Below, one piece after another: positions 950 through 63,496 of a stretch of DNA of 64,000 nt. Below the pieces are notes generated by a model. The model was given only the letters and a program-made list of their open reading frames with translations. It was not told where the DNA came from and ran no database searches. The DNA comes from Styela clava. Its lineage: Eukaryota. Location of the stretch: assembly GCF_964204865.1 (NCBI RefSeq), contig NW_027556593.1, positions 1-64,000 of the forward strand. Direction: 5' to 3'. Each line of letters begins with the position of its first letter. The stretch's first letter is position 1. The translations under genes and the position numbers were made by a program.

Positions 950-3900
950 ATGAAACAAAGATCAAATATAATATTCAAAACAAATAAAAATGGAACAGCC
1001 TATCCTGTCATTGATACAACCAAAGATATTTATTTTTTCCCAATGGTTGTTTCGTCTGGTCACACTGGCGTTGATGATCAATTGACATTCAATGGTGTTA
1101 ATAAAAGATATATTTACACTGGAAGAAAATCAGTTATTATTAAACCTTTAGGATGAGAAGGAGACGTTACTTTACACCATGTGGAAAATGACGGTACAAT
1201 ATCTGAAATCCCTGCCTCAGAAATAACAAAAGACAACTTAGAAGGTAAAGATCTTGTTGGAAAACGCAACATTTTTCCAGGTATTTTTTTCGTTGGGAAG
1301 ATTGTTTCTGCCCCTACATTTACACAAAACTATCGAACAAGTAAATTGGGCTTTGTAGAAAAAAAAATAGACTCTCGGATTGAAGCTGTCTTTAAAGAAG
1401 ATAAAAATGACGGGTTAAACATTATATGAGATTTTGAACATAATATTATAAAGAAAAACTTTGCAAACTTAATGTTCATGTGTCCAGAACTCAACGAAAA
1501 TAATATTTTGGACATAGAAACTATTACAGTGTATGTCAATGAATCAGGAAAATATGTTTATCATTCAATAGTATTTGTTTCGCTTAATGAAAAACTAGAA
1601 GAAGCTGGACGAATGCTTGGACAATCAATTTTGTTCTCTCATCCAGGATCTAGTTTCTTTTTACCATATGTTGTTGGTTCTAAAGCAGAAAGAGATGTAA
1701 CTAAAATATTAAGTGATGGTTCTTTTTCGCAAACCAAAATAACCGTTCCCAAACATGCTTGCGGATATTACAATAAAGAATGATTAACAAATGGCGATTT
1801 AATAGGTTTTGGAGAATTAGACAACACACTATTAGAAAACAAAAAAACAGAACTGAACGCTGAAGATACTACAGATGAACGAAAAACAGAATTAACAACT
1901 GAAATTTCAACCATGATATCCGATGCCGAAACAAAAGCATTGGAAAAAATTAATGAAATCGAACTTGTTGGTACCTCTGACAGAAGAAGCGCTGGATTAA
2001 AAATAGTACCTGGAGTAGACAGTATACAACTAGCACTTAACGGTATGAGTGGTATAATGGGTGTTGAAGTATACGGAAGAAAAAAACTAGATGATCCTTT
2101 GTATATTTCAGCAGATATAAAAAAATTGATGTTTTCTAGCTTATTGGAACCAACACCTGATCCTTTGTCTTTAACATACCAATACGAATCATCTCACGAA
2201 ATTATTCCAAACGCTTATTTTATGTTAAATAATTATGCTGCGGATTTGATTCAAGAATTGGGAATAGAATATGATCCTCGTATGGATAGAAAAAATATGG
2301 GGTCTATTATGGTTAACAATAAATCATCTTTGGATTATTTAAAATTAAATTATGTTAACGATTTCGCAAATTCAGTTTTACAAAAAAGAGTTACTTTTGT
2401 TAATGGGAAAACTCGAACAGCCGTATCACCTTTATTTGAAAACAAGGAAATTTATGCAGCTAAACAAGAACGTAATATTAGCGAAAATGAAACAGAAACA
2501 ATATTTGATATTGGCGATGTCGCCGAAGACAAAGAAAAAAACAATGATTTAACATTGGATTTTTTATCTATTTGTAATTATCTTAATTTCATTAGTATTA
2601 TTAATTCAGATTTAATGTTTCTATCACCCAATGTTGTTCAAATAACCAACTGAAAATCGTTTTGAGGAGATATTATCCAACAAGGTTCTACTTTGGTTGG
2701 TGCCCTAGTAGGTTTTGGTGTTGGAACAGCAATATCTAAAAAAAGTAAAGGTGGTAAATTCTTTGCCACTGCCGGAGCGTGAATTGGTAGTCAATTGGGA
2801 AATGTTGTTCGAAAAATTTATGACCATGCTGCCAATGCAAATGAAGAAATGTTTATTCAAAGAAAAATGTATAATTCAAATCGGCGTTCTTTCCCATTTT
2901 TAATTAGTTCCGACGCACTTGCCATGATTCATTCAAATCTAAGTGTTGCGAATCAATTATTACATGGTATTCCTATGGTATTGTTTTCGACATCAGACAA
3001 CCCTATAACTTCGGTTATGGATTCTTCTCAATTTAACGATATTTATAAATTGAAATTAACAGACAAATTTAAAACAGAACCATTAAATTTATCGGAACTC
3101 ACTGAACAAGAAAAGGTCGATAAATTAAATGAAACACACGACACTAAAGAGTTATTGAATGGAAAATTTAAAATAGGTGCTAAATTGTTAGCTATCCCAC
3201 AATCCGAAGATGACCCGTATGATTTTGAAATTGATTGAATAGTTATAAAAATGTTAGGAAAAAGACAAATAAGATTGACTTTCTATGATAATGAAGATGA
3301 CATTGTTGGTTTTTTCCATTTGCAGAATTCGGCATTATTCGGAGGTAATATTAGAGAGATAACAACCAATATTATATTAAATACACGAAATGATAATTAT
3401 TCTTCTGTAGATGCTTATCTCGACACATTGATTAATCTTCAACCTTTGGACTTAACGCCAATTGAAGCAGTATCTGCTACGGCAAATGCGGCCGCACTTA
3501 AGGAACTATATGGTTTTATAGACCATGATGTGCTTATATTCGAAGAAAAAATAAAAGAAGAGGAAAAAAAACATTTCAAAGTTAATTTCAATACTATTAA
3601 AAATGAAATTTTCGCTTATGCCATTGAAAAAAACGTTCCTGATAACGCTATTGATTATTGAGATGGAAAAAAAACAATTTTACTAAATAAAATAGATACC
3701 TTAGAAGAACATTATAGTTTTCTAATTTTCGAAAACTACAAAAGATATGTAGAACTTTACTACAATTCTTCTAATCTTCTAGAAATGAAAAGAAAAGAAA
3801 TACAGTCAACAGCAATATTAAATGCATCATTAAAAGAACAATTATTCGAAAAAATTAATTCTTTTCAAGAAAATAATAATATTCTAGCCGAAGAAAGAGC

Positions 3901-5920
3901 AGAGGCTGCAGGTGAAGTGGATAAAGCAGCGAAGATTAAAGCATATAACGATTTTGCTAGTCAAATTATAGCTACCAACACTGAATCTGATTTAACGATT
4001 TTGAGCAATACTATTGAATCCAATACTGTTTTGGATGACTCAGATAAAACAAGATTAAAAGAAATTATTGCTGATAAAATATCAGATATGCAACAAGCAC
4101 TCATTTCATCTTTGGTTTCTAATTTGAATTACCAACTACAAGAATTTATAAATATATATGATTCAACAGAAAACATACAATTACTTAAAAACGATGAAAA
4201 TATAAATAACCTTTTACGATTAGACGTCAATGAAAATTATAACTCTTTTTCAGCGGATAAACTAGCTACATTAAAATTGTCTGCTACCGATATAGATACT
4301 GAATTTTTAAGTGATGTTAAAACCACTACTAATATTGATGGTGCGATAAATACATTGTCTTCTTTTCAAACAAATAAAATATCATCATTAAAAGTACAAA
4401 CATTATTTGACTCTCACGTTGATATGACTTTGGAACCTTATGATGCTGACACTAACCCAACAGGGTTGAAATTAGACGAAATACCTACAGCTCACCAAAA
4501 ACAATTCCTATCTCAAGTATTCAACATCCCTGAAGAAACATGATCTAGTTTTAATAATATATATGATAACAATCAAATATTTATTTATAAAACTCCATTT
4601 AATCTTTATAAGTATTTCTCATTCGAAAAAGTTGAAAAATACCTATCCAACACTGATATTGCTACTATTTACGACACTTTAAAAGATTATGTCGCTCCTG
4701 ATAAACGTTTCCCAAAAATTATTGATTTTCGAGGAGAGTACAATGGTAAAGATGGTGATACGAGATTACAAAATTTTATAGATGATAGCTCTCAATTTAA
4801 CTGAGAAGTAACAACTGACACATCTACAAATGTTGGTTTTAATACACCTAGTGCTTATATAAGTTCTATGTTTATGTCGTCAGATCAATTTTGAGCTACA
4901 ATTCGTAATTATATATATAACAAAGGAAATATAATTAGTAATGCAGAAAATGAACAAAGTTTTACTTTAGAGCAAATAAAAGATGTTGTTTCTCCAACTC
5001 TTTTTAATTCGTACAACACCAATAGAACTAAATTTTTCACAATAGCCAATGAAATCAACAGTATTAATGCTAATTTAACACTCCAAAAAGGAGACCCTTT
5101 GACTAATGCATTAAGGGAAAAATTATTACAACATAGATTAGATATATTAAAAACAACAACCTTTCTTCGTTATTCAAACAAATCTTCTATTTCCGATCCC
5201 AATGTTGAAACAACAACTTTAAAGTGACTAGGGGTTGGTTCACTTGGTGCATATACTGTCCCCTATTTAAATTCAAATTTTGATAGAACACCAGGTGATA
5301 CTACTGACTATACATTACATCCTTACGATGAGCGAAATCTTAATTCCGACTTTCATAGGCTTTCGAATAACCGATCTGGTGGTAGCGGATCAAATGTTTA
5401 CTACCATACTGGTTATTTTATTTATTGAACTGACATATTAAAAAAATGAGAAATTAATCTTCCTATTTCATCAATTTTACAACCTGAATGGAAGACATTG
5501 TCTTTTAATTGTCGATACGATTTTGATTGAACATATAGAATAGATTCACTAATCACTTTTTCATTAGGTATAAACGCTTTGTCTACTCACTTTTCAGATC
5601 CTTATCAGGAATCATCGCTTTTACCCATAGAAATTGATCTTGAAAATTTAGAGGATGATGTCCCTAAAACCTTCTGATTAAGCAATGTGGAATTCAATTC
5701 AGATGGTGCTTATCAATGAAAGAACTATAAGACAGTTTACCTGGAAAATGACACTTTCGGACAAGATATTCGTTTTACTTTGACTAAATCTTCAACGGGG
5801 CTTACTATTAAGTTTTCCAGTTGACGATTACTTTATTGATTAGGAAAAAGAAGAAACGACATAACTTCGTTTATTTTACCCAAAGAAATATCAATAAACA
5901 ACATAAAATTAAAGGTATAA
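950..5920 (+). CDS. Large virion/tail protein (1656 aa, code 4), variable C-terminal half
   Basis: Track ORFs 950, 1181, 1472, 1913, 2795, 3251 and 3785 share one frame and are separated by TGA; ends TAA at 5920. Confidence 0.7.
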
Positions 5921-8998: not shown

Positions 8999-9517
8999 CT
9001 ATATTTTTAGGTCTTTTTTCGCATAAACGAATAAAACATAGGCTTCTGCAAGATCATCAGAAAAAAATTTAACTATTGTGCTTCTGGCGACTTGTTTGAT
9101 TCGATATTCCACAGAATTTTTTTTCGTGTTCTTTTCGACTTCAAAACCTTTACCGTGTTCTTTAACGAAAAATTCTACAGACTTCTTTTTTTTGAATTCT
9201 CGTTTCAAAGCTTCGTTCAAAACTTCTTTACTCACTTTTGTCTCATTGTGATAAAATGATTTTAGTTCTCCGCGGATGTTCATTCGTGTTCTTTCGTATA
9301 CAACTCCTTTTTTGAAACTAAGAGATTTAATAATCTTCAAATAACCATACATGTCGTCATAGAAAACCAAGTTAGTAGTACCGTTTATATCTCGAATTAT
9401 TCGCGTATAATTCTCAAGAATGTCGTAGAAATTACCCTGATCATAATAGTATTTACCTTCTATTAAAGCGTAATAACCAGATTTCTTCCCAACATCTCAT
9501 GCGATTAAATTGTTCAT
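8999..9517 (-). CDS. Hypothetical protein
   Basis: Code-4 extension of ORF 8999-9370 to ATG 9517. Confidence 0.6.
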
Positions 9518-10128
9518 ATTTCTTTATTTAAACTCAAATTAGATGTTTCTCCTGTGTTTTTATCGATGTAAACAATATATTTTTCGATTTCATTTACTTT
9601 TAACCCAGCTTTTTTCGGTAAAAAATTAGTTGAGAAAAGTCTTGCGTATGCTCATAATTGACATCCATATTTGAATCTTTCCAAATTGTTTGTTGATCTT
9701 TTACTTGTTTTTCAGTCTAATACGAAAAACTTACGTGTTTTTGTGTTGTAACCAATAACATCAACAGTTCCACAAAGATAAGCCTCTGGATCCATAAGTT
9801 TTTGTTCTATTAAACAAACTTTCATATACTTAGGTAGAATTGTACATTTATCGTTTTTTACCAATTCTTCCATGTGCTTATGGATTTCAATTCCTCTCTT
9901 TGATGCTTTTCGCAAAATCATATCCTTATATTCAGGATCCATTGTCATTGTCTTATCGTAATAATGTTGGGCATAACCAAATACTGAGGTTACGCCATTC
10001 ATTGACTTTTTGTTATATGTATATTTGTGTTTTTTTTCATCGAATTCCAAATATTGACTTCGTTTTTGAAACCTTGAATCGTCCAAGTGTTTCAATAAAT
10101 ATTTTTTATAATTAATATGATGTTTCAT
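9505..10128 (-). CDS. PD-(D/E)XK (Cas4/RecB-like) phage exonuclease
   Basis: GVTSV, RGIEIH, GTVD, LDWKT and QLWAY motifs in code 4. Confidence 0.85.
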
Positions 10129-12559
10129 TGTTATTTTGTTCCTCCCATGTTACATCTTGTTTGAAATAATCTATACATTTCGTATCTCCACAAAAGCATT
10201 TAATGATTGTTCTTTCTTTGAACACCATTAAAAAACCTTTGTATGTTCGTTTGACTGTATCATGATGGATCTTATTAAGGTGACATTTAGGTACAAACCC
10301 TATAATATTTTCCTGTGTCATGCAACGTCTAACGCTATATCCCTTATCTTTTAGCATTTGAACCAAGTTCTGTACTCTACCTTCTGTTTTAATCCCTTTT
10401 TCATAAACAGCACACTCTTCAAGCATATTCTCTACTTCTTTTGGTATGTCTATTGGTTTTACATTGTTGTTATTATAATAGTAATCATTCTTATCTATCA
10501 TCATCATATAGCTATATGGCTTAACTTCAATGTCATATTTCGAAGCAATTTTTCATTTTAATTTTCATAATTTCTTGCTAGGATTTTTAAAAACCAATTT
10601 GTATTTCCCTTTTTCTTTTCCTCACTTAGAAGTTATTGACAATGTTTTATCTTTGTATTTTAACAACAAAGGATGTTTTTGTACAGTGTCATCGTCATCG
10701 AAAACAACGTATTCCTGTGCTGGTTTAATAGCTAATGAATTAAATTGTTGAAACCTTTGTATGTTGTTTCCAGAAGTGAAAGGGTTAACCATATCTACCA
10801 AACTAATTTTTTGTGTGTCTACGGCATATTCCTTTTTCCTATTGATAACAAAACGTTCGGAATTATTATTTTCACCAACATACGATAGTGTTCATTGTAT
10901 TTTATCTAATTCGATTCCGAGCCTTTTGATTTTTTCAACCATATCCATATTGTCTTCAAATAACTTTTTTCGATAACTCTCTTCAAAAGCAAATCCAACG
11001 AATTCGTGAGGCAATTCTTTCATTCGATCTTCCTCGAATAATTTCAATCACGACAATCTTTCTTCATATGGGTACAATGATAGTTTTTTGTTATTAACCA
11101 ACAACGCACTTTGTTTTGATGGTTTGTATATTCCTTTTGCCACTATCTTTTTCGTTTCCTTAATTTTATAGCAGTGGTTGTTCACATCTCGACTTAAAAA
11201 TCAATCTAGTTCTGAAATAGTTACTTCGAAACCACTTTTATCCATTACTTTTTTAGGTACACCCGTCAAATCTTTTTTACTTTGAACGAAAACACCGTCC
11301 GTATTAATGTTGATTATTACAGCCTCGGGATCCTGCAATAAAATATTGCTTATTAACAATCAAATTAAAACTCGTCCTTGTCTGCAAATTCAGTTTTGAG
11401 TGGCAAATCCAGCCTCGTTATTTAAAGAGTTCTTTTTGAAAAAATAGGGAAGAAAACCAAATGTCGAATTCAACAATAGTTTCATCGCTTCACGTTTGAC
11501 CTTGTCCTCTTTTGTTCCGTATTTAAGCACTGTTGTTTGATGTTTTAACTCGCAATATCTGTTAAAGCTAGCTTCAGTAAACAATTTAAACAATTTAGAT
11601 TGTTGTCCAAGTACCAAAATGTTTGGGTAAAGACTTGTGAAATCCATCGAATAAATTTTACCTTCTGTTTCGCTAGCCTTAAAAAACTTTCTAAAAACGA
11701 CATTGTGAACCCCTCCGTTGTAATTATTTCCGTTATTAAGACAATTCTTGTTGTGCGCTGGTAGGTTTATTGGGTTAAAATCATTTTCTTTAATGTGATT
11801 TCAAAACTCAGGATTATCCTTGCTTATCCCGAAATTCATAATCGTATACGGATCGATCACAATTGTTTCTGGATTGAATTTAAACAAATATGGTAAAACG
11901 TATGTAATTTTTTTATTGAAAAGAGCTCAATCCAATTTACGAACTGCCAACAAACTTTGATTTGTCATCAATTGTTTAATGTTTAAATACGGGTGTCTGT
12001 CGTGGTTTTTGTATAATTTGTATGTAGCTTCCAAGTCATTTTTCAAATACGCAATACATTTTTCTTTGTTGTTTTTGTAATAATCTCATTCTTCGAATTG
12101 TCTCTTATCACCTTTTTCGCCCTTTCAAATATCTTCTCCAAATTCTTTGAAGTATTTATTTTTTAATGACGGTCCAATCGACTTATATAAATCAAATTGG
12201 TTATCCGCCAAATCGTAAATCTGTGGTCACTCGTAAGCATAAAGTCATGAATAAAAAGTATTATTTTTCTTGTAAAACTTCGCCACTTGTTTATAACCGT
12301 TATTAATAATATAACCGTTGTATTCATTTAAGTTATTTCCGTTGTTAAAGTAGGTTATCATTAAAACATCATATCGAAAGAAATTGAAACCAATTATTTT
12401 GTCACAATTTGGCATGTATTTTTTTATACCTGCATCGTGATTACTAAACTCTCGAATCGTAATTTCTTTCGTATCAACGTCCATTTCCCCCACAATAAAA
12501 TATCATTCTTCAAAATTTTTGCCTTTGTATAATTCTGTATCGATAATTAATTTTTTCAT
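10112..12559 (-). CDS. Family B DNA polymerase (815 aa) with C-terminal primase-like and Zn-finger extension
   Basis: Exo motifs IDTE, GFNFFRYD, YLKND; Pol motifs DFTSLYPN, KLLLNSTFG, NTDG; frame runs on without TAA/TAG into ORF 10112-10507. Confidence 0.9.
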
Positions 12560-14124
12560 TATTTTATGTTTCCTTCCTTATATTTTTTGCTAATTATAAA
12601 TCATCACCCGTTAACCATTTTACCTGAAAATTCATTTTCTCTTTTTAATCTTACTTTTTCAACATCGTAAGTATCAAAATCAGTATTCTCAAGTAATTTG
12701 TTAAAACGAATTTTTCCTTCATTTTCTCATCTATTATCTTTACAAAAAGACTTGTATTCTTCGTATATTATTTTACCATTTTTTTCCAAGGTTATATCGA
12801 TAACTTCTTCGAATAAATTGTCCAAAAATTGTTCTAATTTTGGTCTTGTTCTTTTTGCGTACAATTCTTTCATTTCTTTTGTTTGATATATTTTACATTT
12901 CGATTTCACAAAATAATAAAATGCGATTGTCATAATCTTTGTCAAACTTTTCTTGTTGTACATAATCGACTCTGGATCATGTCTTGCCTTGTATTTACCA
13001 AAATTGTTTTTTAGTTCTATAAAGCAAAAACGTCTTCGTAAAGCCTCTCGTCCATTGATTTCCGAATTGATATGGTATACTTCATTAGTCGAAAAAATAT
13101 AATTTTGAGGAGGAATTACTTTTGAAAAGCTTGTTTTGTATTTTTCTTCGAAAGATTTAACGCAATTTTTGTCTGTAAAATCCTTCAACAATGCTATTCT
13201 GCTTTTATTTAATTTGTATTCCTCGTCGAATAAAACAGCAACTCGGTTAATTAGAGTTGTATATATCATTTTGTGTCCGGCATCTAGCATTTTGATTGAT
13301 GCTTCATTTTGAATGCCGTCCTCGTTTGTTTTCTTTATTAATCGTAAAAACTCAGATTTACCATTGTTTCCTCCACCATTAATTACTACTATACTTCCCA
13401 TTTTTGCTCTGTAGAGATTGACCTTAGCTAATATTGTGAATAATGTCTTTGTTAATTCTTCGTCTTTTTTAGCGAAATCCGCAACAAATTCGTATTCTTT
13501 ATCATTGCGGAAATCAATTTCGTTATTTAAATATTTAGTAAAAAGTTCATAATCGAAAAAAGTCTCATTTGGTATAAATCATGGTTTTTTGTGTTCCTCT
13601 GTCATCTCCTCTTTATTTTTTAATATCATGTCAGGTAATTCTCATTCGGTAATTCCGTTGTCGGCAACTCGGTATAATCCTTTGTTGGCGAAAAAAAACC
13701 CTTTTCTGTTTTGAATGAATCCTGCCATTTTTTTTTGATATTCAAAACTGCTATCTCTGTCCGTACTAAAATATTGTGGAAAATCTTCTCGAACGTTTTT
13801 GATCAAGTTGATATGTCCAATACTTTTTTTTGTGAAAAACTCTAACAAATCAAAATCGTCTCATTTGATTCATTTTTCTTTATAAAATAAATAAAGTCCA
13901 ATCGAATCAATGTGAAAAATAGGGAGCGTTGCCCTTATATACATACATATAAAGGCAACTTTTCCGTCTTTCAACCCACAATTGTTGAGAAAAAAACTTG
14001 GTGGTCAGTCTGGAACCAATAATCGATGTTCACTGTAGTTAAAATTACTATTATTGAATAGCTTTTTGACCACTTTTGTTTTTTCCGATTGTGTATTGGG
14101 GATGAGGTCTAGCTCGCGTCTCAA
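12559..14124 (-). CDS. SF3 (D5/P4-like) replicative helicase
   Basis: GGGNNGKS Walker A, VLFDE Walker B, IFSTN motif C, ALRRR arginine finger; TTG start after AAGGAG. Confidence 0.88.
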
Positions 14125-14861
14125 CCCGAAGCGTCTCCTTTAACTTCAATTTTTTTTGAATTGATTTCGGGTTTGTCATATACGATTGAGTTGTAGCTAT
14201 TTCGAGTTAATGGAGCAATTGCTTCATCACGTTCTTTTCATTCACCGAATTTATCAGCTAAAAAGACTAATGAGTTTTGGAATTTTGGTGCCATTGAAAT
14301 TTTGTTTCATTTTCTCAAAGTTCCGTCTTCATTTAAGTAAGGTGTCTTTTTTTCCATATCTTGCATTAAGAAAGGTTGACGATAAGTTAATCCTCTAACT
14401 TTAAGATATACACCATTCATTTTGTCTTCTTTGATTAGTTTTACAGCAAAATCGAAAACATCTTTTTCATCGAAAAATTGTCTAATAATGCTAATAAAAA
14501 TTTTGATGTATTTTTGCTTTTCGATTGAATATGCGATGATTTGTAGTCGAATATATGAATCTCCATTCAATTTAGCGTTTTTACTATTTTGAATAATCCC
14601 GTGCGTCGCTTTGATGACTGATCCGATTACCATTTGTGCTCTTTCGAATGCTCGTTTTTTTTCTCCCGCAGTGACAAATTCCACTCCACTTTCTTTTTTT
14701 GCAGGTTCATTAACTACCACATTATTTTTTACAGATTCTGGCGTAGTTGTTGTTGTGTTTTGCAATTTAAAATCAGGTGCGTATTGTACTTCAGTTTTTT
14801 TTGTTGCAGGGTTTGTTGTTGTGTTTGTTGTTGTGTTTGTTGTTGTGTTGTTTGTTTCCAT
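14109..14861 (-). CDS. Putative single-stranded DNA-binding protein, Thr/Asn-rich N-terminus
   Basis: Replication-module position; acidic/aromatic tail GDASGWDAS; function inferred. Confidence 0.4.
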
Positions 14862-15596: not shown

Positions 15597-16074
15597 TTTT
15601 TGGTCCTCCTTTATTTGTTCTAACTATAAAATAATATCCTAAAATAATTTGTACGATGAATAGTAATAGTATGATTATACCACAAATGATAAAACCAGTT
15701 GTTTTTAGTGATAAAAAATATCCTACTCATGCTGTGTAAAGTGGAATCAATCCACTAACTGTAAATATAAAACCTGATTGTACAAGGCTAAATGATTTCA
15801 AATCTTTTCATTTTCGTTCAATGTTTAATCCTGAAAAGAAAAACGAAATGTTTGTTGCCAGGAAAGCAAACGCCCCCATTGGAAAACCAAGAAGGTAATA
15901 AAAATACACCGCATTATTATCTCCACTCATGTCTCCGATGACACTTCATTCTACGTCACTAATCGCACATATTACTATTGACATTGTCGTAAATAATAAG
16001 GCTAAATAATTAATAGCCAATACTACCTTCAATATTGTTTTTTTTCAGTTTATCGGTTTTTTTATATTAAGCAT
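15583..16074 (-). CDS. Multi-pass membrane protein (163 aa)
   Basis: Code-4 ORF with about 4 hydrophobic segments. Confidence 0.65.
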
Positions 16075-16843
16075 TTTTTTTGTTCTCCGTTCTTTTATTT
16101 ATTATACACTGATAACAATATAAATTGTATCTTTTTCTACCTGTAAAACTTTCAGGTGTTTTTAATTCTGTATTTTCGAGGTTTTTATCTTCCGTGTGTT
16201 CAGCATCAAGATTGTTTCCACATTTACATTTATTGTACGGAATGTCAGTGAAATAATGACTTCTTTCTTTTAAAAAATCAATAATTGCTGTTTCATCTCG
16301 AAAAATACAGCTATATTTGTTAATCATAATATATGTAATTGATACTCCTCTCGAAAGTAAAAAACGAAAAATCATTAACACGTCATCCATTAAATGGTTG
16401 AAAAAACCTAATTCTTCAAAAACAACCATTTTTATATTTTTGGGTTTTTTAATGAATTTCGTGATTCAATCGTATTCGCTTCCAAATTCGAAAAATAAAG
16501 ATTTATTTGAAACAGATAATGATTGTCCCATATCTCACAAGAAACAATTTTTTTCAATTTTTGAAAACTCTTCGTGGCTTAATAATGATGTACTTAATTT
16601 GCACACATTGTATTTATCGTAATTGTCTGTTGGTCGAATTGATTCTTTCGGCACTACATATAGTATTTCATCAGGTTTTAGAAAACTATCCAGTCATTTC
16701 TTGACATTTGTGGTTTTTCCGGTTTTCATTGCTCCGAAAACACCAAACATTAATCCTGTTTCGAAACGTTCTGCGTCTTCTTCGAAATCAAATCATTTCC
16801 GATCATCATTTCGGTTTCATTTAATTATATTACTTTTTTTCAT
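16067..16843 (-). CDS. Divergent thymidine kinase-like protein
   Basis: FGAMKTGKTT, VVFEELGFF, Zn ligands CKC and CYQC. Confidence 0.7.
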
Positions 16844-17484
16844 ATTTCTCCTCAAAGCTCCTTATCTTGGGTTGTTTTCCTATATATTGTAACTTTTTCT
16901 ATTTGTTGTTTAACGGCGTAACCACCTTTAGCGTTGAAAAAATCGAATGTTTTTCGAAACGCAGAACGTATTAGGTTAACGTACTTTTTATCAAGGCATT
17001 TTTCGTCGTAATTGTTTGTTGGTTTTCGAATTGTTGCTCGACGCATTATTTCAGTCGTAGGACAATCGAGAAAATGAATTTCATCAGGGAAATAATCATC
17101 TAAAATAGTTTCGTTATATAATCCTAATAATTCATGTTCATTAATTGTTTTGTCTCCACCGAAAACTTGATAAGCATAAGTACTAAAAATGTATCGATCA
17201 CAAATAACAACATCGTATTTTTTCAATTGTGGTTTGATATATTTCATAAATAATTCTCATCCAATTCCGATAAACAAAACTGCTTTTGTACGTGAACTAA
17301 TATCTAGTTTATCATTGAAAAAGATTTTATTCGCCATAATGCGTCCAAATTTTATGCCTTTTGGTTCGCACGTCGTAAGTACTTTCAATCCTTCTTTTTT
17401 TAATTCTTTTTTTAATTTTTTAATATATGTTGTTTTACCAGAATAATCAATTCCTTCGACAACAATAAATTTTCCTTTTTTCAT
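16825..17484 (-). CDS. tmk: Thymidylate (dTMP) kinase
   Basis: FIVVEGIDYSGKTT, EP, VICDRYIFSTYAYQ, PD..FLD. Confidence 0.92.
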
Positions 17485-17486
17485 TT

Positions 17487-18150
17487 TTACATGTTCTCCT
17501 TTCGTATCACTATTGGTACTGCTTGTCCTTTCAGTTCAATAACTATGTGATCCCCAACCTTGTATCCTTGTTTGTTTGTTGATAAATTCACTTTCTTAGC
17601 GAAAATTTCATTCAATTTAACAGGGTGGTTCAATCATGCTATATAACTTATTTTACCAGTTTTTTTTTCCAAATTGTGTAGTTATTTTTTTGATTGTCGC
17701 ACACGCCGTCGGTCCCGGTAATTTGAACGCATATTTACGCTCGATAATAATACCATCAATAGGATAATCAATTTGTTTTTGTTGTTCGATATAATCGTTT
17801 AATTCATCAATTTTTATTGTTTTTTCAACATTTTTATAATTAATGAAATCAATTAGTTTATGTCGTTCCACTTTTTGCTTCCTATTAAGAAGACCAACAA
17901 CGTCTCTTCGTGTCCCATTTTCTTTCTTCATAACAAGTTCGCCCCAGCCGACTTCCAATATTCCTTCTATGGAAAAAGTTGTTATTTCTGATCAAGAACG
18001 GCAAACAATTAACTTGTTGGTAGAGGCATCATAAAATGCTCCCACTCCGTCAAGTTTTGGACTCACCACTATTGTTTTAGCGTGTGGTGCTAATTTAAAC
18101 AAAATGTCTTCTAAGTTTCAAAATTTTTTTAACGTTTTATTATTTATCAT
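17487..18150 (-). pseudogene. Minimal NAD+-type DNA ligase, +1 frameshift in an A9 tract (copy 1)
   Basis: PKLDG, GEL, YPIDGIII, AFK, then an OB-like domain; 664 nt versus 663 nt in the intact copy 2. Confidence 0.75.
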
Positions 18151-20427: not shown

Positions 20428-20501
20428 TGGCAGGGATAGTAGGACTCGAACCCACACCAAAAGCTTTGAAGGCTTTTGTTCTACCTTTAAACTATACCCC
20501 T
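20428..20501 (-). tRNA. tRNA-Trp(UCA), decodes UGA
   Basis: AAAGC-CT-TCA-AA-GCTTT anticodon arm, short variable loop, GTTCGA, encoded CCA. Confidence 0.92.
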
Positions 20502-20506
20502 AAAAA

Positions 20507-20583
20507 TGGTACCCACGGGAGGACTCAAACCTCCAACCTAAGGCTTAGAACACCCTTACTCTAATCAATTGAGCTACGTGGGT
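20507..20583 (-). tRNA. tRNA-Arg(UCU)
   Basis: AGGGT-GT-TCT-AA-GCCTT; acceptor ACCCACG/CGTGGGT; CCA. Confidence 0.8.
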
Positions 20584-20588
20584 AAAAA

Positions 20589-20664
20589 TGGTCGGAAAGA
20601 GAGGACTTGAACCTATGATCTCTCGGACCCAAACCGAGTGCTTTTCCATCTAAGCTACTTTCCG
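20589..20664 (-). tRNA. tRNA-Pro(UGG)
   Basis: CTCGG-TT-TGG-GT-CCGAG; CCA. Confidence 0.92.
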
Positions 20665-20668
20665 ATAA

Positions 20669-20743
20669 TGGCTGGGGTAGCTAGATTCGAACTAGCGAAT
20701 GGTGGTCCCAAAAACCACTGCCTTTCCACTTGGCGACACCCCA
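20669..20743 (-). tRNA. tRNA-Gln(UUG)
   Basis: GTGGT-TT-TTG-GG-ACCAC; U1-A72; CCA. Confidence 0.92.
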
Positions 20744-20746
20744 AAA

Positions 20747-20822
20747 TGGTAGAGCCATTGGGGATCGAACCCAAGACCTCACGCTTATAAAGCGAGCGCT
20801 ATAACCACTAAGCTATGGCTCT
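20747..20822 (-). tRNA. tRNA-Ile(UAU)
   Basis: CTCGC-TT-TAT-AA-GCGTG; acceptor AGAGCCA/TGGCTCT, A73; CCA. Confidence 0.88.
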
Positions 20823-20825
20823 ATA

Positions 20826-20899
20826 TGGAGCAGATGAGAGGAATCGAACCTCCATAGTCAGATTGGAAATCTGAAGTTCTACCATTAAACTACATCTGC
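20826..20899 (-). tRNA. tRNA-Gly(UCC)
   Basis: TCAGA-TT-TCC-AA-TCTGA; U73; CCA. Confidence 0.93.
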
Positions 20900-20902
20900 T
20901 AA

Positions 20903-20979
20903 TGGTGCTGGTTACAGGCCTCGAACCTGTACTCGTCCGTTTACAAGACGGGTGCTTTGCCACATTAAGCTAAACCAGC
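20903..20979 (-). tRNA. tRNA-Thr(UGU)
   Basis: CCCGT-CT-TGT-AA-ACGGA; CCA. Confidence 0.9.
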
Positions 20980-20982
20980 AAA

Positions 20983-21068
20983 TGGTGGAGGAGGAGAGAT
21001 TCGAACTCCCGTATCTAAAAAGAATCTGATTTACAGTCAGACGCGTTTAACCACTTCGCTACTCCTCC
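20983..21068 (-). tRNA. tRNA-Tyr(GUA)
   Basis: TCTGA-CT-GTA-AA-TCAGA; long variable arm; CCA. Confidence 0.93.
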
Positions 21069-21069
21069 G

Positions 21070-21145
21070 TGGCGGACCTGACGAGAATCGAACTCGCTAT
21101 CTCCTCTTAGACAGAGAGGCATGTCATCCATTACACCACAGATCC
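21070..21145 (-). tRNA. tRNA-Asp(GUC)
   Basis: CCTCT-CT-GTC-TA-AGAGG; G73; CCA. Confidence 0.9.
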
Positions 21146-22455: not shown

Positions 22456-23010
22456 TTATTTATATTTAGTCTTTTCTATATAATGTTTAATACATAATAC
22501 TTGATATTTATCAGCGTCTCCAACCAAATTATTACTGTCGTTGTGTAAAATGTAATTAGAATATGCTTTTTCATCGCATTCGAAACAACGAGCTTCGTCT
22601 AATTGGTAACGAACGTCAGCAAATCTTCCAACGTATTCTTGAAAAAAATATCGTGGATCTGTCTTATATAATGTCAATAGACAAAATACAAGAGTAATAC
22701 GACGGCGTTGTAAGTTTGGAATTTGTTGTAGAAACTCATATGGATAAAAGTGAAATTCATCAAAAAATAGAACATTGTGTCCTTTAGCTATGGCATCTTC
22801 AATTTTATTTGTCAAATCGATATGATCACGAAAAGTGATAACTGGTCTAATTTGACGTGTTTCTCTTGTTGTTCCTTCTAATTGAAAAATTTGTGGTTCT
22901 TCAATACCTCATTCTGCGATAAGCTTTTTTAACTTTGTCGTCTTTCCTGCTCTCATGATTCCTTCGATTGAAATAATGAGCCCTTTATTCAATAACTCTT
23001 GTTTGAACAT
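22456..23010 (-). CDS. Thymidine kinase-like protein
   Basis: IEGIMRAGKTT, VLFFDEFHF, RCFEC, YQVLCIKHY; GGAGG RBS. Confidence 0.78.
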
Positions 23011-27065: not shown

Positions 27066-28319
27066 TTATTTTTCTTTTCCTCCTTTTGAAATAATCAAAT
27101 GTTTTTCTCATAATTTTTTAAATTTAATCATGTCTAATTTGAAACTATTTTTCTTACTTATTAATTTAATCAATAATAAAGGTACTCCTTTTGATGTAAC
27201 CAAATCAAATATTTTTTCTCCTTTTAAAACATAACCTTTTTGTATGTTTAATAAATCACTTACTGTTTTTGTTGTCATTATTTTTCAAAAAACCTTTTCT
27301 TCTTTCATTACTATTGTATCATATTCTTTTTCGAAAAGTTTAAATAAAAATGGTCCTCGATAATTTAAGAAGTAACCACGCATTGAAGCATTTCGAATTA
27401 AATGTCGTACAACCGAACCGTGACGTTTTTTGAAATCAATATATTTTTCTTTAATCAAGTCTTTCAAACAATATTTTATCGCTAATACATGATCACAAAT
27501 AATTTTAACATTGATATCATTTGTAGTTTTCTTTTCAATTTTGTCAGCAATATCAGTGTATTCTTTCAACTGGAAAGGTGTTTTAAAGTTGTTAACAACA
27601 ATCAACAATCTTTCCAATCCGGCTCCAGTATCTATATTTTTTTTGTTTGACATAGTATAATTACCTTCACCATCATTTAACATATAAGAAAATACAACGT
27701 TTCATATTTCTAAATATCTGTCATTATCAATATTTTCTTTCAATAAATCAATTCCTTTGTTTTCTTTATCTAACTGCTGTCCCAAATCATAAAAAAATTC
27801 AACATTTGTTCCACATGGGCCAACTCCTAAATCTCAAAAATTAGTTGTTTTATCTCCTGAAATCAAATGGTCTTCTTCAACACCTATATTTAACAATATT
27901 TGTTTAGTTTCATCGTCCGAAAACAAATACGTAATGTACAATTTTTGAATGTCCAAATTCAATCATTTTGGCGATGTTAAAAATTCTAATGCTCACGTTA
28001 ACGATTCTTTTTTTTGATAATCATTAAATGAAAAGTTACCTAACATGCGAAAAAACGTTAAATGTCGATTAGTTTTACCTATTAAAGAGATGTCGTTTGT
28101 TCGTATTACATCTTGTACGTTAAAAAGTCGTGAATGCGGTGGTGTTTTTTCTCCTAAAAAATAAGGTCTCAACGCTGAAACGCCTCTCAACGCTGAAACG
28201 CCTGAATTTACAAATAATAATGAACCTTCTTTGTTAATTATCGATTTGTTTTCTATTTTAAAATGTTTCTTTGAAGTTCAAAACTGACTTCATTTTTCTA
28301 TTAATTCTGTTTTATTCAT
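27066..28319 (-). CDS. alaS: Alanyl-tRNA synthetase, aminoacylation half only (417 aa; no editing or C-Ala domain)
   Basis: LLFVNSGV, Q..IRTNDI..IG...RHLTFFRMLGNFSF.DY.K, NFW..G.GPCG..EFFYD, RYLEIWNVVF, IDTGAGLERL, IICDH; own RBS and coupled stop. Confidence 0.93.
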
Positions 28320-33868: not shown

Positions 33869-33945
33869 GGTGAGTGTGGCGAATCGGTTAACGCTCCGGA
33901 TTGTGGGTCCGGTACGAGTGGGTTCGACTCCCACCGCTTACCCCA
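33869..33945 (+). tRNA. tRNA-His(GUG)
   Basis: CCGGA-TT-GTG-GG-TCCGG; G-1:C73; CCA. Confidence 0.92.
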
Positions 33946-36318: not shown

Positions 36319-39300
36319 ATGGCAACACGAGTATACGAATTAACGGAAGCACCTTATATTTCAGTAGCGGATTTTAAAAAATTTTACGCTAGAGAATATA
36401 AGTATGAACCAAGCGACGCGGAAATCCAAGCGGTTATCCAATTAGCTTTCACAAAACTAAACATGTTTGTAGGAGCAAAGGCTATCAGTCAAGAAAGTTT
36501 GAACGAGGCCCAACCTGACCCTATTAAACGGGACTTTTTCAAGGAAGCTATTGGACGGTTAGCGGATTACTTTTTGGACATAGGTATTTACGACCAAGGA
36601 TCACATAATTCTTTTTCTTTCGGTCAAATTAGCGCCAGTTCAAATAACATCTATGAAGTCGAATATGTTCCAAGAATTGTTCGTCAATTAATCGAATATA
36701 GTGAATTGTATACTCCTTTTGTCACTTTGGACAGTTCCATTGGGGAATGTTCTACAGACGTAGATGCCAACAATGTTGTTGATTTTTTCGATGCTTTCAT
36801 TACTCGTGATGACGCTGTAAAATTAGTCGACACAATGAAAACGACACTTCAAGAAGAAATAGGTGTTCGTTTACATAATACTTTAAATGGTACTGATATG
36901 TCATGACATGTTAAAGCACCAATTCCATTAAACGAAACAATCACCAAAATTTTAACAGATTTTGATGAATCAACAAACACACCCAAATATAGTTTGAATG
37001 GAGAACTTATTAATGATCTTAATCTAGCAACAGAAGATTTTGTTTCGCAACAATTCAAATATCTTGACTCAATAAAATACACTACAGATCCTGTTTATGA
37101 ATCTAAAGTGTTAGTCGATTATATTCATAGTGCCACAGAAGGTGGACATCATTTCTTAGCTGTAAAAAGAGAAGACTTGATTTCTCACTGAAATTTGGCA
37201 ACCGAAATATTTGTTTTGAAAGAAATTGAAAAACGTCATCCAACTAACGAAGAGGTTGACGAAGCTGTTTCAACACTTATGACTAAACACAGTGTTAATT
37301 TTATTAAAGGGGACATGACAGAGGATATCGTTTCTCATTTAATAACATTGGATAAAGAATTGGCTACTGAATACGATCATAACGACTCATCTACATTGGA
37401 TGATATTGAACCTCTTACTCTTATTTCATATAACGACGAAATATACATGATGTTTGCAAAAAACACAACATCTATTTATTTAATAAACAAATACAAACGT
37501 GAAATTTGAAGACACGATATAAACACTCAGTCAGAAAATCTTAATGGAACAAAAGTAATTTTAACTATTAAACAAACAACTTTGGCTATTGATTATATTA
37601 AAAATAATAATAATGCTTCGGCTCCTACTCTTGTTAACTACGAGTCAACCTTATTAACAGAAGTTTATGACAGAGATGAAATCGAAGACGGGTTTATTCC
37701 ATTTTATACGGCCAATAAAACATTTGTCGGACATAAAACAGGAGCTCTTGAAACAGGAATCGTGTTAATCGATCCTAAAATAAAAAGTGCTGATGACAAT
37801 GGAACACTGTTGCATCATCCTTTAATCGAAAAATTATCTTCAACAGATAGAACATCGGAATTCTTAAAGTCTCTTTATTATTTCGAAAAAAATGGCAAAA
37901 TGTACATGAAACAAGTTAAGGGTGACATCGAACAATTATTATTGTCTGAATCAGGACTTAACACTGTACATTCTATTTTACATAACAACACAAGTTTTGC
38001 ACCCATAAGAGACACTTATAACAAAGCTGAAATCGATAGTAAACTTGATGGTATACTACGATTAGATGATTTATTATTAAACGAAACTACTTTACCTTGA
38101 ACACAAGTTCCAACAGAAAGTCAAAGAACAACATTAACTGCTGTTTTTAAAGTTCCTAAAACATTTTATGGATTAAACGTTGGAAAATGAGGAAGCGATT
38201 GAGCTTACAATCCTTTATCACTTCGTACAGAAGAAAAAGTTTATCTTTATAAATTTAATAACTTTGGAACACCTCAAACTTTAATTGAAGACATTTGAAG
38301 TTTATGAAAAAAAGATACCGCTGAATTTCCTTCAAATTGATTAGAATTAACTGAAGATCAAAAACACGATGCGGCCTTAAAATTTGTAAATAAAATATGT
38401 GGTTCGAGTTACAAAAGAAGTGACTTTGAACACATTGGAGGTACTGTTTCAAAATTAGATCATATTAGTCCAATTAAAAGAAGCGATTTAGGAAAGCTTT
38501 ACGAATATTTTGTTCTTTCACAAAATCCTCCAGTTTTCCCATTTGAGTCTAATTTCAGCACACCGCAAAAATGATCTGACGAATATGGCTTTACAAAAGA
38601 ACAATTCTATAATCATTTTGTTAAAAACACAATTATTACAGAACATATTAATAATATTGTTAATACCAAAGGTATTGATGTATCATTAGAATCATTTTTA
38701 GAATGAAAAACACCGTTAAGTGACGCGCAAATCGACCATATTAAAGAAGGTGTAGTTTCTTTCGATACGACTAAATATGACACATACAAACCCCTTGATA
38801 AATTTGTTTATGACAACGAAGTATATGCTGTTGTAACTCGATCGGCAGATGATTCGAACTGAATTATTATATCTTTATTTAAGAATATAGGACCTATCGA
38901 AATAAGAGCAAATGGTGACAAAGTACTTATTACGGAATACGATAATACATTACCTAGTCCATATAATTCGAGTGGGGCAAATTTGAATTTACAATACGTT
39001 TGTTCGATTATTTCGTGAATCAAACACGTTCAAGAACATCCGATTTCTGACGCAACACCTCAACAAATCAACGAAAGTTATCACAAAAGATTTACATTCC
39101 TTGAAGGTCATTTACCAACATTTCCTATTTTCACTACTGACGACGGAACAATATATGGTGTAAATGCTCTAGGTTATTTAAACGAGACTTTTGCTAAATT
39201 ACATCAAATCGAAACAGGCGAAACCGTTTATGCTACAAAAAAAGACACTTATACTAGACCTCAAATTGATACAAAAATTGATTCTATTTTCAGAACTACA

Positions 39301-54836: not shown

Positions 54837-55447
54837 ATTTCTTTATTTAAACTCAAATTAGATGTTTCTCCTGTGTTTTTATCGATGTAAACAATATATT
54901 TTTCGATTTCATTTACTTTTAACCCAGCTTTTTTCGGTAAAAAATTAGTTGAGAAAAGTCTTGCGTATGCTCATAATTGACATCCATATTTGAATCTTTC
55001 CAAATTGTTTGTTGATCTTTTACTTGTTTTTCAGTCTAATACGAAAAACTTACGTGTTTTTGTGTTGTAACCAATAACATCAACAGTTCCACAAAGATAA
55101 GCCTCTGGATCCATAAGTTTTTGTTCTATTAAACAAACTTTCATATACTTAGGTAGAATTGTACATTTATCGTTTTTTACCAATTCTTCCATGTGCTTAT
55201 GGATTTCAATTCCTCTCTTTGATGCTTTTCGCAAAATCATATCCTTATATTCAGGATCCATTGTCATTGTCTTATCGTAATAATGTTGGGCATAACCAAA
55301 TACTGAGGTTACGCCATTCATTGACTTTTTGTTATATGTATATTTGTGTTTTTTTTCATCGAATTCCAAATATTGACTTCGTTTTTGAAACCTTGAATCG
55401 TCCAAGTGTTTCAATAAATATTTTTTATAATTAATATGATGTTTCAT
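54824..55447 (-). CDS. PD-(D/E)XK exonuclease, copy 2
   Basis: Allele of 9505-10128. Confidence 0.85.
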
Positions 55448-57878
55448 TGTTATTTTGTTCCTCCCATGTTACATCTTGTTTGAAATAATCTATACATTTC
55501 GTATCTCCACAAAAGCATTTAATGATTGTTCTTTCTTTGAACACCATTAAAAAACCTTTGTATGTTCGTTTGACTGTATCATGATGGATCTTATTAAGGT
55601 GACATTTAGGTACAAACCCTATAATATTTTCCTGTGTCATGCAACGTCTAACGCTATATCCCTTATCTTTTAGCATTTGAACCAAGTTCTGTACCCTACC
55701 TTCTGTTTTAATCCCTTTTTCATAAACAGCACACTCTTCAAGCATATTCTCTACTTCTTTTGGTATGTCTATTGGTTTTACATTGTTGTTATTATAATAG
55801 TAATCATTCTTATCTATCATCATCATATAGCTATATGGCTTAACTTCAATGTCATATTTCGAAGCAATTTTTCATTTTAATTTTCATAATTTCTTGCTAG
55901 GATTTTTAAAAACCAATTTGTATTTCCCTTTTTCTTTTCCTCACTTAGAAGTTATTGACAATGTTTTATCTTTGTATTTTAACAACAAAGGATGTTTTTG
56001 TACAGTGTCATCGTCATCGAAAACAACGTATTCCTGTGCTGGTTTAATAGCTAATGAATTAAATTGTTGAAACCTTTGTATGTTGTTTCCAGAAGTGAAA
56101 GGGTTAACCATATCTACCAAACTAATTTTTTGTGTGTCTACGGCATATTCCTTTTTCCTATTGATAACAAAACGTTCGGAATTATTATTTTCACCAACAT
56201 ACGATAGTGTTCATTGTATTTTATCTAATTCGATTCCGAGCCTTTTGATTTTTTCAACCATATCCATATTGTCTTCAAATAACTTTTTTCGATAACTCTC
56301 TTCAAAAGCAAATCCAACGAATTCATGCGGTAATTCTTTCATTCGATCTTCCTCAAATAATTTCAATCACGACAATCTTTCTTCATATGGGTACAATGAT
56401 AATTTTTTGTTATTAACCAACAACGCACTTTGTTTTGATGGTTTGTATATTCCTTTTGCCACTATCTTTTTCGTTTCCTTAATTTTATAGCAGTGGTTGT
56501 TCACATCTCGACTTAAAAATCAATCTAGTTCTGAAATAGTTACTTCGAAACCACTTTTATCCATTACTTTTTTAGGTACACCTGTCAAATCTTTTTTACT
56601 TTGAACGAAAACACCGTCCGTATTAATGTTGATTATTACAGCCTCGGGATCCTGCAATAAAATATTGCTTATTAACAATCAGATTAAAACTCGTCCTTGT
56701 CTGCAAATTCAGTTTTGCGTGGCAAATCCAGCCTCGTTGTTCAAAGAGTTCTTTTTGAAAAAATAGGGAAGAAAACCAAACGTCGAATTCAACAATAGTT
56801 TCATCGCTTCACGTTTGACCTTGTCCTCTTTTGTTCCGTATTTAAGAACTGTTGTTTGATGTTTTAATTCGCAATATCGGTTAAAACTAGCTTCAGTAAA
56901 CAATTTAAACAATTTAGACTGCTGTCCAAGTACCAAAATGTTTGGGTAAAGACTTGTGAAATCCATCGAATAAATTTTACCTTCTGTTTCGCTAGCCTTA
57001 AAAAACTTTCTAAAAACGACATTGTGAACCCCTCCGTTGTAATTATTTCCGTTATTAAGACAATTCTTGTTGTGCGCTGGTAGGTTTATTGGGTTAAAAT
57101 CATTTTCTTTAATGTGATTTCAAAACTCAGGATTGTCCTTGCTTATCCCGAAATTCATAATCGTATACGGATCGATCACAATTGTTTCTGGATTGAATTT
57201 AAACAAATATGGTAAAACGTATGTAATTTTTTTATTGAAAAGAGCTCAATCCAATTTACGAACAGCCAACAAACTTTGATTTGTCATCAATTGTTTAATG
57301 TTTAAATACGGGTGTCTGTCGTGGTTTTTGTATAATTTGTATGTAGCTTCCAAGTCATTTTTCAAATACGCAATACATTTTTCTTTGTTGTTTTTGTAAT
57401 AATCTCATTCTTCGAATTGTCTCTTATCACCTTTTTCGCCCTTTCAAATATCTTCTCCAAATTCTTTGAAGTATTTATTTTTTAATGACGGTCCAATCGA
57501 CTTATATAAATCAAATTGGTTATCCGCCAAATCGTAAATCTGTGGTCACTCATAAGCGTAAAGTCATGAATAAAAAGTATTATTTTTCTTGTAAAACTTC
57601 GCCACTTGTTTATAACCATTATTAATAATATAACCGTTGTATTCATTTAAGTTATTTCCGTTGTTGAAGTAGGTTATCATTAAAACGTCATATCGAAAGA
57701 AATTGAATCCAATTATTTTGTCACAATTTGGCATGTATTTTTTTATACCTGCATCGTGATTACTAAACTCTCGAATCGTAATTTCTTTCGTATCAACGTC
57801 CATTTCCCCCACAATAAAATACCATTCTTCAAAATTTTTGCCTTTGTATAATTCTGTATCGATAATTAATTTTTTCAT
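55431..57878 (-). CDS. Family B DNA polymerase with primase-like/Zn-finger extension, copy 2
   Basis: Allele of 10112-12559; the fusion is intact. Confidence 0.9.
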
Positions 57879-62833: not shown

Positions 62834-63496
62834 TTACATGTTCTCCTTTCGTATCACTATTGGTACTGCTTGTCCTTTCAGTTCAATAACAATGTGGTCT
62901 CCAACCTTGTATCCTTGTTTATTTGTTGATAAATTAACTTTCTTAGCGAAAATTTCATTCAACTTAACAGGGTGGTTTAATCATGCTATATAACTTATTT
63001 TACCAGTTTTTTTTCCAAATTGTGTAGTTATTTTTTTGATTGTTGCACACGCCGTCGGTCCTGGTAATTTGAACGCGTATTTACGCTCGATAATAATACC
63101 GTCAATAGGATAATCAATTTGTTTTTGTTGTTCGATGTAATCATTTAACTCATCAATTTTTATTGTTTTTTCAACATTTTTATAATTAATGAAATCAATT
63201 AAATTATGTCGTTCCACTTTTTGCTTCCTATTAAGAAGACCAACAACGTCTCTTCGTGTCCCATTTTCTTTTTTCATAACAAGTTCGCCCCAGCCGACTT
63301 CCAATATTCCTTCTATGGAAAAAGTTGTTATTTCTGATCAAGAACGGCAAACAATTAACTTATTGGTAGAAGCATCATAAAATGCTCCCACCCCATCAAG
63401 TTTTGGACTCACCACTATTGTTTTAGCGTGTGGTGCCAATTTAAATAAAATGTCTTCTAAGTTTCAAAATTTTTTTAACGTTTTATTATTTATCAT
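62834..63496 (-). CDS. Minimal NAD+-type DNA ligase (220 aa, intact)
   Basis: KLDG, GEL, DGIII, AFK, then a LigA-like OB fold (QFGKKTGKI...PV.L...VGD...GQAVP). Confidence 0.8.

What the first reader, a model, noticed from the sequence alone, without database searches (positions are those of the whole stretch)
10112..12559. Family-B polymerase fused to a C-terminal primase-like (AEP/Prim-Pol) domain and Zn finger
Seen: in both copies the PolB frame continues about 350 aa past the palm/thumb. It reads LAIKPAQEYVVFDDD, TLSITSKWG...GKYKLVF, DIEVKPYSYMM, then C-x5-HH...KCFCGDTKC. Known: Prim-Pol domains have a hhhDxD motif, a T-x-s-x-G-x-H-hhF motif and a hD/E motif, and UL52/PrimPol-type Zn fingers are C..H..C..C. 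The adjacent SF3 helicase shows no primase motif I can recognise. Inference: the primase has moved onto the polymerase, giving a self-priming replicase. The motif II His seems to be replaced, so the domain may be degenerate.
Basis: partly seen in the sequence, partly recalled or inferred. Interest (0 to 1): 0.75.

Follow-up and report, generated by a model that had tools for sequence, protein, structure and literature searches.

The report
Phage polymerase with tail-end primase domain
A bacterial virus that reads TGA as tryptophan carries one 815-residue protein in which a proofreading-type DNA polymerase is followed by a likely primer-making (primase) domain and a predicted zinc-binding domain, so it would likely start and extend DNA chains by itself, a reordered, helicase-free version of a fusion already shown to work in a dairy phage.

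Summary
The gene is real: 815 aa in code 4, the same protein in both window copies, and kept at 36% identity in a second phage of the same assembly. Residues ~1-600 are a phage family-B polymerase (phrog_1252). The extra tail is about 200-215 aa, not 350. The tail is under purifying selection and keeps D621/D623, K654, E678 and seven Cys/His residues in both phages. Several weak but concordant tests (profile alignment, fold-search enrichment, gene order in relatives, a helicase with no primase part) point to a divergent AEP primase domain plus a zinc-binding domain. None is significant alone, and the models are poor (pLDDT about 50). Lys at motif II has precedent in an AEP family, so it does not show decay. 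Primase plus PolB in one chain is known (phage 1706 GP55: helicase-AEP-PolB). What differs is the order PolB-AEP-Zn, with a separate SF3 helicase. This scan noted the same order once before, with a fused SF2 helicase, and I found one more such protein. Verdict: new variant of a known kind. AEP-derived about 0.8, active primase about 0.6.

The parts
10112..12559 (-). Whole gene, 815 aa in code 4: exonuclease, PolB, likely AEP primase domain, predicted Zn-binding domain
11960..12559 (-). 3'-5' exonuclease domain (res 1-200; D7, E9, D64, Y171, D175 conserved across relatives)
11120..11722 (-). PolB palm/fingers core (res 280-480; D306, K360, N364, D421 invariant in 20 of 20 aligned)
   Evidence: phrog_1252 E 4.6e-25 over res 2-485
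10760..11119 (-). Probable divergent thumb (res 481-600), inferred from the length of relatives
   Evidence: median tail 201 aa; 30% identity to phage 2
10415..10759 (-). Likely AEP/Prim-Pol catalytic domain (res ~601-715): D621, D623 (10691-10708), K654 (10598-10600), E678 (10517-10534)
10160..10387 (-). Predicted Zn-binding domain (res ~725-800): C759, H760, H765, H766, C788, C790, C795
12559..14124 (-). Separate SF3/D5-type helicase, 521 aa, no detectable primase domain; its stop overlaps the polymerase start by one base
14109..14861 (-). 250-aa ORF, possible single-strand-binding protein (guess from position only)
   Evidence: no family hit; not tested further
9505..10128 (-). PD-(D/E)XK exonuclease directly downstream
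   Evidence: PF12705 E 3.6e-6, phrog_298 E 4e-15
8999..9517 (-). 172-aa ORF, RuvC-like resolvase by recalled motif pattern only
   Evidence: no significant family hit
55431..57878 (-). Second copy of the gene in the next unit of the concatemer (offset 45,319)
20428..20501 (-). tRNA with TCA anticodon, supports TGA=Trp and so the read-through of the frame

Best explanation
This is the replicase of a code-4 tailed phage: a family-B DNA polymerase with an exonuclease domain, joined in one chain to a likely AEP-type primase domain and a predicted zinc-binding domain, so it would likely prime and extend DNA by itself. Proposed working: the separately encoded SF3 helicase unwinds the template (inferred). 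The Zn domain holds the template and the first nucleotide, as in PrimPol (inferred). D621, D623 and E678 bind the catalytic metals and K654 takes the phosphate-binding role of the usual His (inferred). The short primer is passed to the tethered PolB site (D306, D421) for proofread extension (inferred from GP55). Likely origin: the gene boundary in the common layout PolB, then AEP-helicase, moved so that the primase part stays with the polymerase.
For: PolB identity. Tail motifs kept in a 36%-identical phage, AEP part 36/112 and Zn part 21/65 identical against 2/17 in the linker; silent:replacement codons 17:2 and 9:2 between two strains. Profile alignment to the AEP that normally follows this PolB puts motifs I and II in register, beats 100 of 100 column shuffles and ranks 1 of 33 equal-depth windows. 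HMM score reached by 4 of 1000 shuffles. Best PHROG hit of the phage-2 segment is a DNA primase, E 0.012. Predicted strand-helix-hairpin order fits the AEP core (core layout recalled). Foldseek: rank 1 Prim_Pol for the 255-aa model; 11 of 31 named rows, and 7 of 9 named rows with TMq of 0.3 or more, are primases for the AEP-only model. Of 119 related PolB loci 46 have this AEP type, 43 downstream and 34 within 100 nt. No other primase domain seen in 40 phage ORFs scanned and no DnaG match in the assembly; phages with a polymerase have a primase in 98% of cases (PMC4889955). GP55 primes and extends without its helicase domain (PMC12205980).
Against: No single test is significant. Both models have mean pLDDT about 50. 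No Foldseek match at E 0.001 or better. Profile probabilities are only 10-21%. The phage-2 domain does not score on the AEP HMM (483 of 1000 shuffles as high). With a smaller profile the window domain was reached by 23 of 500 shuffles. In a panel of shallow full-length alignments (127 of 139 families tested) no AEP family was in the top 8. Direct comparisons with single AEP proteins gave nothing. Only two independent sequences carry this tail. The Gly before the motif II position is not kept in phage 2.
Confidence: 0.6

Rival explanations
1. The tail is AEP-derived but no longer primes. It serves as a DNA-binding, processivity or helicase-coupling module, and primers come from the host's DnaG or RNA polymerase.
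For: Motif II His is replaced, and His at this site is essential in many AEPs (PMC5862659; PMC4027207). The domain is short (about 115 aa) and barely detectable by profile.
Against: All three acidic residues and the Lys are kept between phages at 32% identity. Lys/Arg occurs at this site in the DR0530-like family, and a Lys sits in the matching motif of P0023, whose domain the Atlas calls Prim-Pol at 0.95.
Confidence: 0.22
2. The tail is not an AEP at all: it is an unrelated alpha/beta domain plus a metal-binding domain, and the motifs match by chance in a Lys/Asn/Asp-rich protein.
Against: Independent weak tests all lean to AEP. The conserved residues fall on predicted strands in AEP order. 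The phage otherwise shows no primase.
Confidence: 0.15
3. The fusion is an artefact of the assembly or of reading TGA through; polymerase and tail are separate genes.
For: The frame needs code 4, and the contigs are concatemers inside a eukaryote assembly.
Against: TGA is used throughout the polymerase core (15 TGA, 1 TGG); a TCA-anticodon tRNA is encoded; 24 identical-length copies and a second phage have the same continuous frame; a short-read contig bridges the junction.
Confidence: 0.03

Closest known systems
GP55 of Lactococcus phage 1706 (SF3 helicase-AEP-aHD-PolB; PMC12205980, PMC4889955)
   Same: AEP primase and proofreading PolB in one chain with separate active sites; related PolB type (a phrog_1252 member also matches the 1304-position phrog_4210, which I take from its length to be the GP55 family); priming works without the helicase domain.
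   Different: Order reversed (PolB first, AEP last); accessory domain is Cys/His-rich rather than the four-helix aHD; the helicase is a separate gene; Lys instead of His at motif II; activity not shown here.
phrog_1252 PolB followed by a phrog_864 AEP-SF3 primase-helicase gene (e.g. Staphylococcus phage HHU-22)
   Same: Same PolB family; the helicase matches phrog_864; AEP motifs I and II align in register; phage 2 keeps the order PolB, AEP, helicase.
   Different: There the AEP is on the helicase and carries His; here it is on the polymerase and is followed by a Cys/His domain.
Eukaryotic PrimPol / herpes UL52 AEP plus C-H-C-C zinc finger (PMC4027207)
   Same: AEP core followed by a C-terminal Cys/His cluster; spacing C-x6-H...C-x4-C is matched by C759, H766, C790, C795.
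   Different: No sequence or fold match shown; extra conserved H760, H765, C788; no PolB in PrimPol.
DR0530-like AEP family (PMC5862659)
   Same: Lys or Arg in place of the motif II His.
   Different: Membership not tested: no family profile was available and the defining paper was not held.
Unpublished PolB-AEP-Zn-helicase proteins: P0023 (MDB4826388.1) and scan note e1-4382524
   Same: Same order PolB, Prim-Pol-like domain, Cys/His cluster.
   Different: They carry a fused helicase (SF2-like by motif, recalled); P0023's PolB does not group with the window's in a quick tree.

Membership tests
Family B DNA polymerase (phage phrog_1252 group) | Profile match over exonuclease and palm | tested here: met
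   E 4.6e-25, res 2-485, when the tail is removed; the whole protein gave no hit
Family B DNA polymerase (phage phrog_1252 group) | Catalytic Asp of motifs A and C, Lys/Asn of motif B, Exo I-III acids | tested here: met
   D306, K360, N364, D421, Y171, D175 invariant; D7, E9, D64 nearly so in 20 sequences
AEP / Prim-Pol superfamily | Motif I: hydrophobic strand then D-x-D/E | tested here: met
   D621-x-D623 on a predicted strand, conserved in phage 2, aligned to AEP motif I
AEP / Prim-Pol superfamily | Motif II with His (canonical form) | tested here: not met
   K654 in both phages. Not required for the superfamily: Gln, Tyr, Arg or Lys occur in several families
AEP / Prim-Pol superfamily | Motif III acidic residue | tested here: inconclusive
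   E678 is conserved and lies within the HMM-matched span, but that stretch is unmodelled (pLDDT under 50)
AEP / Prim-Pol superfamily | RRM-like catalytic fold | tested here: inconclusive
   Low-confidence models; primase-enriched but non-significant Foldseek lists; no AEP among solved-structure matches
AEP / Prim-Pol superfamily | De novo primer synthesis | not testable with these tools
   needs purified protein
UL52/PrimPol-type zinc finger | C-H-C-C ligands with C-x6-H...C-x4-C spacing | tested here: met
   C759, H766, C790, C795 against C419, H426, C446, C451; conserved in phage 2
UL52/PrimPol-type zinc finger | Profile or fold match to the family; zinc binding | tested here: inconclusive
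GP55-type four-in-one replicase | Helicase, AEP, aHD and PolB in one chain in that order | tested here: not met
   Order is PolB, AEP, Cys/His domain; helicase is a separate gene in both phages
DR0530-like AEP family | Lys/Arg at motif II | tested here: met
   K654
DR0530-like AEP family | Sequence clustering with the family | not tested
   no family alignment at hand

The most novel reading that the evidence does not exclude
A natural, compact (815 aa), helicase-free, self-priming proofreading DNA polymerase with the order exonuclease-PolB-AEP-Zn and a Lys-type primase active site, marking an undescribed lineage of ~45-kb code-4 phages; together with P0023, L140 and the earlier scan note it shows that the primase has been moved onto the C-terminus of this PolB family more than once.
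Probability: 0.5. Interest if true: 0.65.

Novelty: new variant of a known kind. Interest (0 to 1): 0.5.

Why it matters
If it primes, it is a small one-chain enzyme that starts and proofreads DNA synthesis without added primers, useful for primer-free amplification and for studying how a primer passes from primase to polymerase when the tether is reversed relative to GP55. It would also test whether a Lys at motif II supports priming, and show that the primase can stay with the polymerase rather than with the helicase, against the usual primase-helicase fusion (PMC4889955). It is not a new principle: GP55 already shows two active sites in one chain.

Full report
Setting. The window is a head-to-tail repeat (period about 45.3 kb) of a tailed phage: terminase, portal, thymidine and thymidylate kinases, exonuclease and an AlaRS fragment are detected. 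Genes are open in code 4 and broken in code 11, and a TCA-anticodon tRNA is encoded. Code 4 suggests a Mollicute host (established knowledge; host not shown). The phage lies on many small contigs of a 377-Mb eukaryote assembly.

Observation. The ORF gives 815 aa; copy 2 gives the same protein with 27 silent differences. Of 40 matches scored in the assembly, 24 are full-length copies, 11 belong to a second phage at 35% identity, and 5 are partial or broken. The second phage's protein is 782 aa and aligns end to end at 36%. A short-read contig of run X1 spans 10489-12857 without gaps (it may be the source sample). The fusion is real at DNA level.

Polymerase part. Residues 2-485 match phrog_1252 at E 4.6e-25 once the tail is removed; the whole protein returned nothing. 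Exonuclease and polymerase catalytic residues are conserved in a 20-sequence alignment. In 119 related PolBs (105 uncut) the chain ends a median 201 residues after motif C (one row had the motif mis-picked), against 396 here. So the true extension is about 200-215 aa.

Is the tail constrained? Identity between the two phages is 42% (exonuclease), 43% (core), 30% (thumb), 32% (res 601-715), 12% (linker, 2 of 17) and 32% (res 736-800). Between two strains of phage 2, silent:replacement codons are 62:9, 17:2 and 9:2 for polymerase, AEP-like and Zn-like parts. D621, D623, K654, E678 and C759, H760, H765, H766, C788, C790, C795 are kept.

Is it an AEP? For. I built a profile from the AEP domain that normally follows this PolB type (46 hits, 36 distinct). 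Profile-profile alignment places motifs I and II in register: score 24.0, probability 16.6%, above 100 of 100 column shuffles; at equal alignment depth the AEP window ranks 1 of 33 (21%, P 0.001). The window domain's HMM score is reached by 4 of 1000 shuffles. The phage-2 segment's top PHROG hit is a DNA primase at E 0.012. The model shows strand, helices, hairpin, later strand, the AEP core order as I recall it. Foldseek against viral models puts a Prim_Pol protein first for the 255-aa model (E 0.045); for the 136-aa model 11 of the 31 named rows in the top 50, and 7 of 9 named rows with TMq of 0.3 or more, are primases. Against. Mean pLDDT is 50 and 51; no fold match reaches E 0.001; the phage-2 domain does not score on the HMM (483 of 1000), although the Atlas-supported Prim-Pol of P0023 scores poorly too (58 of 1000); a smaller profile gave 23 of 500; a shallow panel of 127 of 139 families showed no AEP in the top 8; pairwise comparisons failed. 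I put AEP ancestry at about 0.8.

Context. Of 119 related PolB loci, 46 carry this AEP type: 43 downstream of PolB (34 within 100 nt), 1 upstream, 2 in the same ORF at its N-terminus. Here the helicase aligns to 34 such primase-helicases only over residues 202-476 (probability 97.6%), its first 231 residues match no PHROG and do not score on the AEP HMM. No other primase domain was seen in 40 ORFs (shorter ORFs were listed but not scanned) and no DnaG in the assembly. Phage 2 keeps the order PolB, tail, helicase with an 8-base overlap; in the window the helicase lies upstream with a one-base overlap. This fits a shifted gene boundary followed by reordering (inference).

The replaced His. PMC5862659 (abstract and two sections read) reports that motif II His is family-specific and is Arg or Lys in the DR0530-like family. 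P0023 has a Lys in the matching motif by eye. So Lys is not evidence of decay, but activity is untested.

What is known. GP55 of phage 1706 joins SF3 helicase, AEP, a helical domain and PolB; it makes RNA primers and extends them, and loses nothing in de novo synthesis when the helicase is deleted (PMC12205980, main text parts 1-5 of 6 read, supplements not seen). PMC4889955 (passages) names two triple fusions and says the primase is N-terminal to the helicase in 94% of fusions. Six literature searches (listings only, apart from the papers named) showed no report of a PolB with a C-terminal AEP and a separate helicase; subscription journals and supplements are not covered. PMC12721341 and PMC3483164 (passages) were not relevant beyond naming other fusions. 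In sequence data the order PolB-then-AEP recurs: P0023 (1639 aa; PolB 3-620, then a domain the Atlas calls Prim-Pol at 0.95, a Cys/His cluster and a helicase-like part), and possibly L140 (cut at the contig end; 1 of 1000 shuffles, Atlas 0.80, a lead only). An earlier scan note describes a 1746-aa protein of that layout (not checked).

Verdict. Works like GP55 minus its helicase, likely; not a member of the GP55 family. New variant of a known kind. Active self-priming 0.6, inactive AEP module 0.22, other fold 0.15, artefact 0.03. Interest 0.5.

Noticed in passing
window 27066-28319 (-): Phage-encoded N-terminal catalytic part of alanyl-tRNA synthetase (417 aa, PF01411 E 3e-73), present in many contigs and at 92% identity in contigs C216 and C318 of the second phage type.
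   Followed up: partly
window 20428-21145 (-) and 33870-33945 (+): Cluster of nine tRNA genes including TCA (Trp in code 4) and TAT (Ile) anticodons, plus a tRNA-His.
   Followed up: partly
whole window; G000 C90, C296, C347, C154: Two related ~45-46 kb code-4 phages occur as multi-unit concatemers on many contigs of a eukaryote assembly; neighbouring units differ by silent changes and indels, so strains are mixed. No host chromosome found.
   Followed up: partly
window 36319-44112 (+) and 950-5920 (+): Very large structural-region proteins (2597 and 1656 aa) with internal repeats and no PHROG match; the longer has no Pfam match either.
   Followed up: no
window 17491-18150 (-) versus 62834-63496 (-): A small DNA-ligase-like ORF (by recalled motif) is 165 aa in copy 1 but 220 aa in copy 2, and 219 aa in phage 2.
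   Followed up: no
window 16067-16855, 16825-17484, 22456-23010 (-): Thymidylate kinase, thymidine kinase and a further kinase-like P-loop ORF: a nucleotide-salvage set.
   Followed up: no
L137:3640-6552 and L138: 970-aa AEP-helicase-PolB fusion whose PolB lacks the exonuclease domain and most of the thumb.
   Followed up: partly
P0011, P0024, P0025, L094:5188-7896: PolBs of this family with long C-terminal extensions, Erf-like by profile in P0011; may be real fusions or read-through.
   Followed up: no
L140:1596-3813: AT-rich PolB on a 3.8-kb contig of a Neisseriaceae bin that runs into an AEP-motif-I-like stretch before the contig ends.
   Followed up: partly
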